A DNA stretch of 63,497 bases, filler included, from Kipferlia bialata (taxonomy: Eukaryota): assembly GCA_003568945.1 (NCBI GenBank). It is 6 parts of 6 records of this genome, joined end to end, with 100 filler letters (N's around TTAATTAATTAA, not from the genome) between each part and the next. Parts side by side here need not be neighbours in the genome. Positions count along the whole stretch, not along the records: positions 1 to 15,035 come from BDIP01000749.1; 5 more parts are not named here. One strand, written 5' to 3'. Made by a program: the position numbers and the translations under genes. Positions within the stretch are counted from its first letter, which is position 1. Every line of letters starts with the position of its first letter. Shown in pieces: positions 1 to 11,637 of the stretch. The notes under the pieces are model-generated. The model searched no databases and had not been told where the DNA came from. It was given only the letters and a program-made list of their open reading frames with translations.

Positions 1-999
1 TTTCTAAAAATGCCCCCTCCCCCCCCCCCCCCCCCCCCCTCTACTCTGTGTTCCTCATACAGGATATGAACTGAGCCGTAGTGACAGCTCTTCCTCCATC
101 TCTCTCGCTCTCTGTCTCTCTCCCCCTCTCTCTCTGTTTCTTTTCGTCATCATACAGTCTATTACCTAGGTACCTGCTCTTTAGGTCATTTCCAACCATG
201 ATAGATTTATCTCACCTACTCTCTCTCAGAGACAACCCATATGCCCACCCATCTCCCTCCCGTATATATATAAGAGAGTGTGTGTGTCCACTTATACATA
301 CATTACCCCCAGCATATATATTGATATATATATAGGTATCAATGCATGTACTTCTATGTGTCTTACCTCCAGCCACCGTGACACGGACAGTGTATCCATC
401 CCTCTGTCATATATATATACATGTACACACTTATATGTGTGAATATATGTGTATGTAATATATATATATCCACCTATATTTTTCAGCCACCGTGACAGGG
501 ACAGCAGGTAATCCTATCTCATATATATATGCATATAGTATATATGTAGTATATATGTATATATAGACATAGACATATATACCCTTATGCATACCTTACC
601 CCCAGCCATCGTGGCAGGTACAGCAGGTCATCCATATCTCTCACTCATATACACCAATATATATGTATATGACTATATGTATATATATGTATATATTGTG
701 TAAAAATATACATACCTTACCCCCATGATGTACACACTTATAAATGTGAATATATATATATATATATTATACCTTACCTCCAGCCACCGTGACAGGGACA
801 GCAGGTCATCATATCTCATATATATACATAGTATACTTATATGCATTCATACACATATGTATATACATGTGCATAGTTCTATTGTGTATAACCACTTACC
901 CCCAGCCACCGTGACAGGGACAGCATATATGTATATATACATATATATGTATGTGTATATATATACACTTGTATACCCTTATACACACCTTACCCCCAG

Positions 1000-1749
1000 C
1001 CACCGTGACAGGGACAGCAGGTCATCCATGTCGGGCAGGGACTCATACAGGTATATACATATAGATATAGATAGATATATGAATATATGTGAGATATTCT
1101 TACTTACTATATACACACAATGTACTCCTGGATACACTTTAGTATTACTAAATGAGTGCTGCTATATTCACAAGTATACATACATATGTAATATACATAT
1201 ATATTGATCACTATAGAAAGTCTGACCGCCAGGGACAGGTATATACAGATACAAAGGCATATTTACTTACATATTTACATATATATATACATACAGTCAC
1301 ACCCATATAGTGGTTAGTATATTACTGACCCCCAGGGACAGGTACTCCCACCACGACAGGGAGAGGGAGACATATTGGTATATATATATATATATGTATG
1401 AATAGTAGTATATATATAGTATTGTATTATTACTGACCCAGGGACAGGTACTCACACCACGACAGGGAGAGAGACAGGGAGAGAGACAGGGAGAGAGACA
1501 TTGACTCCTTCAGACAGAGCAGAGACAGCGACAGGGGGAGGGAGAGGGAGAGGGAGAGAGAGAGCGTAGATACAGACTACACCTCTAGAGACTATAGCAC
1601 CAGAGACACGAGGGAGAGAGAGAGAGACTTCATCAATGAGCCCCTCTCATCATACTACATGTCCAGGTATCTCTCTCTCTCTCTCTAGACCCCTTATTCA
1701 CATCTCTCAACCTCTTCGTAGCCATATTCCCATAGCAGGAAACCTTCCG

Positions 1750-1780
<31 letters not shown>

Positions 1781-1942
1781 ACCCTCTATTCACGTCAGGA
1801 CTGATGACCAGTCCCAGGACTCTCCATCACATCCACAGGGTATGGGATACTCTCTCTCTCTCTCTATCTCTGTCTCTCACATATTCAATGTTTTCTTCTT
1901 CTCTCCCTCTCTCGCATATATATATGATTATATATTAGTTTG

Positions 1943-8685: not shown

Positions 8686-8734
<49 letters not shown>

Positions 8735-11297
8735 GTCTCTCTCTCACCCTGTAGGACATGGAGAGGGAGCGTGTTCTGTTCAGTGGACTAGGGGTTGATA
8801 TGGTGGAGGAGGAGTCCAGTCCAGAGAGAAGGTGAATACACACACACATATGTGTATACAATATAGTAATTAATACATACAGCAGTTTGTTAGACACTAT
8901 AGATACTATATACATTGGGGTGGACATGGTGGAGGAGGAGTCCAGCCCGGAGAGAAGGTAAATACACATGTATATATGAATATATATATATATATGTATG
9001 TATATTATATAGACACTATGCATGTATATATATATATATATATATACTAGGGGTTGACATGGTGGAGGAGGAGTCCAGCCCAGAGAGGAGGTGTGTACAG
9101 AGTGATAGATACACAGTGTGCTGAACTGTATTCATGCCTATCCATATACCGAGTTACTCTTTGTATTCTTTGTCATACTCATAGTTGTACAGTTATATAC
9201 TCAGGTCCAGTACCCTGAGAATATGAATGTGTGCATCCATGTACATTTCTATCTTATATACTATGTATGTATATTATATACCATGTCTTCTATCTATATG
9301 TACATATGTATGTGTGTGTGAAGGTTTGGACTTACCCTCATTGTCTTACCTGTGTAGTTGTATACACACATATATACTTATACTTATACAATACTACGTA
9401 TTATATGTATATATATATATACATGTAGTCCCTCATTGTCTTACCCCAGGTCCAGTACCCTGAGTATATATATGTAGCTATTTATAAACACATATCCATA
9501 TATAACAATATCTATGTATGTGTCTGGTATTTCTTCGTCTTACCGCAGGTCCAGTACCCTGAGGGGTGGAGACACAGACACGGAGAGAGAGAGGGACAGA
9601 GAGAGAGAGAGACTTGAGGAGAGGCTTGAGTCACCATCCCCATTAGGTATATTTACAAGACTACACAAGAACAAGAACATACATTACGCATTTATGATTA
9701 TTTCCTCCTATATACTCATATCGTTGTTCCGCAAATGTATGAATATCTCCACTACATAGCGCACTCCTACATGCATATATATAGACATATATATATTCTT
9801 TTGTATTCCTGGTTACACATTATGTGGGTAGTTGGGAAGATTTACGTTAATTGTCACATGATGGTATTGAGTAAATATATGTGTGAAGTGTATGCATGTA
9901 TTACGTCTCTCTTTAACCCTAGGTGATGCCGAGAGAGAGACAGGCAGTTGCGTATATAGTACTATGTATTGCTATTCTCTTTATTTCCATTATTTAGAGT
10001 ATGTTATTATTATCTGTTCATTATTAGTAATTATCTATTTACTATTAATCAATAATTATTGTTATCTATTCATTATAGATAAGTCTCTAACCCTAGGTGA
10101 TGCCGATAGAGAGACAGAGAGAGCAACCAAGAGTGGGACTCTTGATACTCTCAAAGGTGAAGAGGGAGAGAGAGAGAGAGAAGATACACCTGATGGGGCA
10201 CTCGAAGCTGGAGAGAGGGAGAATGCTAGTACTAACTACCCTCGAGGAAGAGATGTGAATGTGCGGAAGGTTCCAGAGGCTAGAGTCAAGAGGGGTCTAG
10301 GACCATTGGTCTGGCAGTGCGGGGCACTAGGTACAGTATACATATACATTAATATTTATATATATATGATTAGTATATATATAGGTGTATATATACATAT
10401 AATCATGGCAGTGCGGGGCCCTAGGTACAGTATTCAAATATGTATATACATACATATATGTCAACGTATTCAATAGTAAACATATTGGTATATTCACACA
10501 ATCATGAGACTAGGACTCTCCCTCTCTTTCTCCCTCTCTCTATATATATGTATCTATAAGTGTATATATTTACATTCCTGTCAGTGCGGGGCTCTAGATA
10601 CTCTCTCTATGTATATACATATATTCATTAATTCACACATAAATGCTCATCTCGCTCTCATCGGCTTTGGGCACTTAGTAAAGACTTCTGTCTGTGTATA
10701 TTGTGCAGCTATCACATTGTTATAATGCCGTACACAGTCTAGCGTCATGTTGGTGTTGTGACCCTGTCATTGTATAGTTATGCTACTCTGTCATGTACAC
10801 TATATATTTGGTAATTGTGTACTATATTCAGATTATTCTAGTCATGACCCCAGGTGTTGTCTGCTACTCTCTCTCTCTCTCTCTCTCTCTCTACCTATAT
10901 ATGCTGTGACCCCAGGTGTTGTCTGCTACTTTGTCCTGATGGAGTGCGCCCTGTTGGTGCTCAGGTATGAGTGTATATATGTATATATGTATACCCTATA
11001 TTCCCTGTGTATTCATAGATAGTAAGTCTATATCTATATAGAGAGAGATGTATACCCTATATATACCATAAGACTATATAGGAAATCCTGATGGAGTGCG
11101 CCCTGTTGGTGCTCAGGCACAGTATGTATACACAGGGTTTATGTATACGAATACACTACCGCATTTATATTTATATAGGGCTTAGTGTACTATTCTACAT
11201 ACTGTGTGATTAATTGGAGTATAGGGAGAGTATTCATTTGTACCCTCACCTCAGGGCATCCCCGACTGCCCAGCAGTGGATACACTCGTCGGTGTAG
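1000..11297 (+). CDS. Large multi-exon hypothetical protein (5'-partial): RD/RE-rich N-terminus, short coiled coil, internal hydrophobic segment, acidic region, C-terminal hydrophobic helix
   Basis: About 20 GT-AG exons can be strung together; the junctions I checked are in frame. Examples: 1000-1050 (HRDRDSRSSMSGRDSYR), MDSVLDSVRHLQDQVKRLSEENSTLRSQLQQ, 3625-3725 (FRAYTAECASDLYSPLDSLVSKRLSRGMTRPQA), VVIQQSLISFGLLALSIVMSTAGLLVFSVR. It ends GLGPLVWQCGALGVVCYFVLMECALLVLRASPTAQQWIHSSV* (TAG 11295-11297). No family recognised. Confidence 0.7.
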
Positions 11298-11637
11298 GCA
11301 TGTGTAGTCATAGAGAGAGAGAGAGAGGGAGAGAACACTGCCCAGCAGTGGATACACTCGTCGGTGTAGGGAGAGGTGTATAGATCGATGTGTACGAATA
11401 GGTATAGAGAGTCTGGATGGAATACATGGACACAGAGAGGAGAAGTGGATAACTAGTGCATTGATAGAGAGAGATAGAGAGAGAGAATACTCATATAGAT
11501 TATGAGTCCAAGTATCCTACAGATATATCCTCTATATCCTCCTGGCGCTCATTCATAACATCAGACCCGCCTCTTGAATAGAGTGAGGCCACAGATCCCA
11601 CCATATACATATATATACACGAATATCAATGTATATA

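What the first reader, a model, noticed from the sequence alone, without database searches (positions are those of the whole stretch)
365..11370. Exon echoes: introns filled with polarised, stacked copies of the flanking splice junctions
Seen: nearly every intron here carries partial copies of its neighbouring exons, and the same holds in the BPI, RING-ARM, Nop14, Brr2, CAPZB and DPM1 genes. The polarity is consistent. Copies of [branch point + AG + 5' part of exon] lie upstream of the real exon, for example five CAG|CCA(C/T)CGTG copies before exon 1000 and four CAG|GTTGT copies before exon 5273. Copies of [3' part of exon + GT] lie downstream (3773-3990, 8915-9095, 11337-11370). Inference: correct splicing needs the outermost donor and acceptor despite intact inner decoys. 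That implies strong exon definition, or nested/stepwise removal, in a genome of otherwise short introns. It also implies a junction-centred duplication process as the main driver of intron growth. I know of no named system with this layout.
Basis: partly seen in the sequence, partly recalled or inferred. Interest (0 to 1): 0.9.

Follow-up and report, generated by a model that had tools for sequence, protein, structure and literature searches.

The report
Mirage splice-junction copies in a protist
In the free-living protist Kipferlia bialata, about four in ten sampled introns hold tandem copies of the neighbouring exon edge with its splice signal, a repeat type known from lancelets as "mirages"; the one transcript checked skips them, and their mostly silent-site differences suggest they were likely copied from other alleles.

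Summary
The echoes are real. In 156 hand-curated exons, 120 of 124 strong exon-to-intron matches sit on a junction with the stated polarity, none reversed; 58 of 135 introns carry one. A separately assembled DNA contig reproduces them, and one spliced contig skips 7 intact inner sites in 5 of 5 introns of another gene. The finding's own gene was not tested with RNA.

Corrections: the layout has a name (amphioxus "mirages", PMC3087553), and this scan noted it before in sea urchin, abalone and annelids. Polarity is forced by tandem-duplication geometry. "Nearly every intron" fails for Brr2 (2/19) and Pol delta (0/8). 11337-11370 copies the stop codon, not a donor.

New here: a metamonad host, 37% of intron DNA inside echo units, inner sites scoring as well as real ones, and echo-versus-exon differences that are coding-filtered (0-fold/4-fold 0.29, where same-chromosome copying plus decay predicts 0.5 or more; 0 of 120 simulations reached it; a cruder scan gave 0.40-0.55). 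Likely origin: unequal exchange between divergent alleles, filtered by selection. Occasional microexon use is the main rival.

The parts
1000..11297 (+). Host gene g1: 24 curated exons (first in view 1000-1050, last 11255-11297 ending in TAG), about 680 codons, RD/RE-rich, function unknown
   Evidence: Open frame with outermost GT-AG sites; no homolog found; splicing not tested with RNA
360..999 (+). Five acceptor echoes of exon 1000 (exon parts at 373, 487, 606, 784, 906), all with AG
1336..1377 (+). Acceptor echo of exon 1442-1666 (a shorter one near 1233 is below threshold)
2145..2172 (+). Donor echo of exon 1995-2038
3253..3271 (+). Donor echo of exon 3054-3112
3300..3624 (+). Three acceptor echoes of exon 3625-3725 (3323, 3426, 3523): 5-7 base changes each, no amino-acid change; each could be a 36-nt in-frame microexon through a weak donor
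3773..3992 (+). Two donor echoes of exon 3625-3725 (3773, 3942), separated by an N gap; first has 5 synonymous, 0 replacement changes
4220..4856 (+). One donor echo of exon 4066-4122 (4220), then four acceptor echoes of exon 4857-4909 (4409, 4522, 4649, 4739)
4910..5272 (+). Four acceptor echoes of exon 5273-5361 (4961, 5022, 5081, 5174)
   Evidence: 4961 scores 26, below the strict cut
5640..6965 (+). Echoes at 5640 (acc), 6051 and 6149 (acc), 6434 (donor, GT lost), 6823 (donor), 6953 (acc, AG lost)
7833..8661 (+). Donor echo 7833; acceptor echoes 8068, 8166, 8314; donor echo 8557
8917..9548 (+). Two donor echoes of exon 8755-8831 (8917, 9046), then two acceptor echoes of exon 9549-9646 (9205, 9450)
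9923..11118 (+). Echoes at 9923 (acc), 10406 and 10578 (donor), 10854 (acc), 11086 (donor, GC)
11337..11370 (+). Exact 33-34 nt duplicate of the last exon's end up to the stop codon; not a splice donor
19122..23230 (+).
28796..38850 (-). RING-ARM gene (KIPB_003765, ARM repeats), 25 exons, 17 echoes in 12 of 24 introns
39556..44925 (+). Nop14-like gene (label recalled, untested), 18 scored echoes in 9 of 11 curated introns

Best explanation
These are tandem duplications of roughly 110 nt that straddle one exon-intron junction (mirages), lie inside introns, are skipped in the one transcript examined, and were likely made by unequal exchange between divergent alleles. Shown: the copies, their polarity, their intact splice signals, and use of the outermost sites in one gene. 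Follows from geometry: a duplication crossing an acceptor leaves the partial copy upstream, one crossing a donor leaves it downstream; copies inside an exon or spanning a whole exon or intron would break the gene and are removed. Inferred: the spliceosome picks the sites that hug a complete GC-rich exon and have at least about 35-50 nt of AT/CT-rich intron beside them, with decay of mis-spliced RNA possibly hiding errors. Inferred: echo and exon come from different chromosomes, so a new echo starts with the silent differences between alleles; a stack is then a record of several alleles and of later neutral decay.
For: Reality and polarity. DNA contig of 1821 nt matches 20203-21946 with 0 differences and 0 gaps. 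RNA: 3 listed GT..AG joints, 1 join read from contiguous record coordinates and 1 loose end matching the real exon at 22962 skip 7 intact echo sites; inner sites would give normal introns of 70-168 nt. KIPB_003765 matches my outermost model at 599 of 605 residues. Coding filter: differences at codon positions 1/2/3 are 53/1095, 43/1100, 139/1093; 0-fold 80/1932 vs 4-fold 71/496; wrong-frame controls reverse this. Changes in a nearer echo where a farther echo equals the exon: 6/564 vs 16/124, ratio 0.08, p 6e-5 against 0.5; without the 3625 stack 6/510 vs 12/113, p 0.002. Simulated same-chromosome copies: median 0.53-0.61, 0 of 120 at or below 0.289. The bias holds in 94 echoes with no partner site (57/1491 vs 60/401). 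Exon GC 0.56, intron 0.37; intron part of a unit never under 34 nt, 4 of 116 under 40 versus 27-73% in random simulations. By eye, the lancelet mirage alignment also differs mostly at third positions and shares several states with the other haplotype's exon (PMC3087553 supplement 4).
Against: No second allele was seen: one search lists no other letters, though its 97% cut would hide a divergent allele. The model needs silent diversity of about 0.10-0.15, unmeasured in Kipferlia. With one echo drawn per stack the ratio is 0.28-0.40, median p 0.016, worst p 0.15. A fixed-window scan that also counts unrelated tail bases of short echoes gave 0.46, 0.40 and 0.55, none below 0.5 significantly. Simulations treat echoes as independent. 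RNA evidence is one contig of one gene from one sample; contigs drop rare isoforms; the run is only guessed to be RNA. Gene models were curated by hand on an outermost-site assumption, and a permissive gene finder could also thread echoes into open frames. Why Pol delta has 0 of 8 and Brr2 2 of 19 is unexplained.
Confidence: 0.55

Rival explanations
1. A good share of echoes are translated at least sometimes, as in-frame microexons or alternative exon ends, so purifying selection on protein keeps them synonymous.
For: Echoes 3323, 3426 and 3523 encode the same 12 residues as the exon, are 36 nt to a weak in-frame donor and are spaced by 61-67 nt, a normal intron size. 41761 and 15973 (5/0 and 6/0 synonymous/replacement) have weak in-frame acceptors 33 and 30 nt upstream.
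Against: Only 7 of 120 have an in-frame partner site as strong as the weakest 5% of real sites, and the bias is as strong in the 94 with none. The RNA contig skips all 7 tested; the public RING-ARM model includes 0 of 13. 16 of 114 have lost AG/GT and 2 carry stops.
Confidence: 0.2
2. Plain slippage or unequal sister exchange on one chromosome, then neutral decay; the synonymous excess is a sampling or method effect.
For: It explains polarity, junction contact and donor-before-acceptor order (12 of 12 mixed introns). Farther copies are more diverged in 23 pairs, nearer in 11, 22 ties. Fixed-window scan ratios 0.40-0.55. It is the process suggested for lancelet mirages (PMC3087553, section 16).
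Against: It predicts a ratio of 0.5 or more, and near 1 for changes private to a nearer echo; observed 0.29 and 0.08-0.11. It does not predict the lack of short intron parts.
Confidence: 0.17
3. Echoes are functional stepping stones: the intron is removed in nested or recursive steps through the inner sites.
For: The intron part of each unit is near whole-intron size (median 82 nt, minimum 34; echo-free introns minimum 50). Inner sites are as strong as real ones.
Against: Removing an inner intron leaves the exon fragment plus intron flank with no new donor or acceptor in most cases (read from the sequence). AG and GT are kept in 49 of 57 each, no better than neighbouring replacement sites predict (about 0.92). 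Paralogous introns work with 59 nt and no echo or 656 nt with echoes.
Confidence: 0.05
4. Short-read assembly artefact.
For: Two exact copies flank N gaps (41685, about 27744). The DNA run laid may be the sample behind the assembly, so it is not independent of library artefacts.
Against: Most copies are diverged (mean 93% in the exon part) in a codon-structured way; a separately assembled contig carries them unchanged.
Confidence: 0.03

Closest known systems
Amphioxus 'mirages' (Adh3, globins BflGb6 and BflGb9, troponin C, PGBD5); read in PMC3087553 section 16 and supplement 4, and passages of PMC3902484; the original Adh3 paper not read
   Same: Tandem copies spanning an exon-intron boundary, at both 5' and 3' boundaries; units of about 60-160 bp; many but not all keep AG/GT; normal splicing is reported; 81-100% identity between units.
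   Different: Reported for a handful of lancelet genes; here 58 of 135 introns in a metamonad. Stacks here are short (58 of 80 single, at most 5 at the strict cut) with microsatellite-rich, more diverged intron parts. The globin paper calls the mechanism unclear and does not use the word 'synonymous' (listing). Length instability is not shown here.
Intron gain by tandem genomic duplication (Rogers model); passages of PMC3443670
   Same: Short intragenic tandem duplication that doubles a splice-like site; one candidate lies in this window (53548-53603).
   Different: That model duplicates an exonic AG|GT and makes a new intron; echoes duplicate an existing junction and only lengthen an intron.
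Human F7 intron 7 37-bp repeat (recalled, and named in earlier scan notes; no paper read)
   Same: Repeated donor junctions of which the first is said to be used.
   Different: Single locus, near-perfect minisatellite, in a genome with a full spliceosome.
Recursive splicing and fungal stwintrons (recalled)
   Same: Extra splice sites within a longer intron.
   Different: Those rebuild a site after the first step and conserve the inner sites; echoes mostly do neither.

Membership tests
Mirage | Direct tandem copy spanning an exon-intron boundary | tested here: met
   120 of 124 hits touch the junction in tandem order
Mirage | Both 5' and 3' boundaries affected | tested here: met
   57 acceptor and 63 donor copies
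Mirage | Many but not all units keep AG/GT | tested here: met
   49 of 57 and 49 of 57
Mirage | Regular splicing is not disturbed | tested here: met
   Main RNA contig, 5 of 5 introns in one gene; minor isoforms and the finding's own gene not tested
Mirage | Minisatellite-like copy-number instability between haplotypes or cells | not testable with these tools
   One sample only; paralogous introns differ, 59 vs 656 nt
Mirage | Concerted evolution within a cluster | tested here: inconclusive
   Some stacks have identical exon parts (41069/41181, 42048/42196), others carry private synonymous changes
Recursive or nested intron | Inner sites conserved above background | tested here: not met
   86% kept versus about 92% expected from replacement-site identity
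Recursive or nested intron | Intermediates or lariats at inner sites | not testable with these tools
   Only contigs were available
Whole-exon tandem duplication with later decay | Whole-exon copies or about half of remnants in reversed polarity | tested here: not met
   0 whole-exon copies and 0 reversed of 124
Rogers-type intron gain | Duplicated exonic AG|GT creating a new intron | tested here: not met
   Echoes copy existing junctions; only 53548-53603 fits

The most novel reading that the evidence does not exclude
Kipferlia introns grow genome-wide by inter-allelic recombination errors at exon edges, so each stack preserves functional exon alleles of other lineages: a population-genetic record of recombination and very high diversity readable from a single genome. 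A spliceosome reported to lack most U1 proteins picks the outermost of several equally good sites using base composition, and the same origin would explain mirages in highly polymorphic animals.
Probability: 0.4. Interest if true: 0.85.

Novelty: new variant of a known kind. Interest (0 to 1): 0.62.

Why it matters
Mirages were a curiosity of a few lancelet genes with an unclear mechanism. Here they occupy over a third of sampled intron DNA in a lineage far from animals, giving thousands of natural splice-site competition experiments in an organism with 87 of 174 surveyed spliceosomal proteins and nearly no U1 proteins (PMC6679479, section 11). The codon-structured differences make the origin of mirages testable from existing genomes, and may show recombination between divergent alleles in a free-living fornicate. 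They also warn annotators: echoes can be threaded into false microexons.

Tried and rejected
No whole genome was held, so there is no genome-wide count; the sample is six scaffolds joined by N-linkers. No run was on record as RNA; X2 is a guess, though its joints are GT..AG. Homolog searches for g1: none at E 0.001 among 92 candidates; two weak hits of unrelated repeat proteins, rejected; no Pfam family for 4 of 4 g1 exons tried. The permissive gene finder over-called microexons and was replaced by hand curation. Microhomology at the free breakpoint: 2.7 of 8 matches versus 1.6-1.8 when shifted, inconclusive because trimmed ends include diverged copy. Whole-exon duplication rejected (no reversed remnants). 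Same-chromosome gene conversion rejected by argument: it moves the ratio up towards 1. CpG-type bias is unlikely: the listed silent changes include many transversions. Literature: ten searches found no report of such repeats in Kipferlia or another protist, and none on synonymous bias in mirages; the species' genome paper has 0 hits for 'duplicat' in its main text (its supplements not read). The library lacks most subscription papers.
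Full report
Setting. The window is six scaffolds joined by N-linkers. An exon at 30922-31068 is 100% identical to a protein named Kipferlia bialata KIPB_003765, on a contig of 15018 nt, the length of the third scaffold. The species is a free-living fornicate with 124,912 GT-AG introns (PMC5874029, section 12 read). 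No whole genome was held.

Gene models. I curated 156 exons in 21 gene segments by hand, using RNA joints for part of one gene. Outermost GT-AG sites give open frames, including a 24-exon frame for the finding's gene. This is not proof by itself: a permissive gene finder also threaded echoes into open frames through weak sites. The public model of the RING-ARM protein agrees with mine at 599 of 605 residues and leaves out all 13 echoes in its span, 12 of them with intact sites. It is a prediction, not a transcript.

Noticed in passing
window 53548-53603 (-): Candidate Rogers-type intron gain: a duplicated exonic AG|GT segment forms a 56-nt intron that paralogs at about 47296 and 50516 lack. 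Splicing untested; this paralog has a frameshift near 52690 and may be a pseudogene.
   Followed up: partly
window 11858-12513 and 13647-13705 (-): Tandem paralogs share an intron that is 656 nt with three scored donor echoes in one and 59 nt with none in the other.
   Followed up: partly
window 38768 (-), echoes 38689 and 38598: The outermost donor of this RING-ARM exon reads GC while both inner echoes read GT: a sharp test of the outermost rule. It lies outside the public protein model.
   Followed up: no
window 42600-42821 (+): A Nop14-like exon breaks off near 42737 and resumes near 42788 with no usable splice pair: assembly error, missing third copy or broken exon.
   Followed up: partly
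window 44414-44471 (+): A 38-nt duplication inside a Nop14-like exon start shifts the frame; which acceptor is used is unclear.
   Followed up: no
window 41685-41729 and about 27689-27775: Exact duplicates flanking short N gaps, probably unmerged scaffold overlaps.
   Followed up: partly
window 18894-19122: The Pol delta-like gene stops mid-protein at a poly-C run and a different gene follows: possible mis-join.
   Followed up: no
window 25960-25990 (-): A (GA)n tract in a first exon puts the frame out of register, probably a repeat-length assembly error.
   Followed up: no
window 45570-53660 (-) and 53860-54323 (+): Four paralogs of one unidentified family with shared exon structure but different echo loads (0 of 4, 0 of 2, several stacks).
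   Followed up: no
window 1840-1994 (+): The donor and the next exon start with nearly the same bases after CAG, a second possible duplication-born intron.
   Followed up: no
window 63050-63415 (-): Cys-rich exon with Pfam PF03489, PF20825 and PF05184 hits (saposin-like, name recalled); its public model seems to start inside the upstream intron.
   Followed up: no
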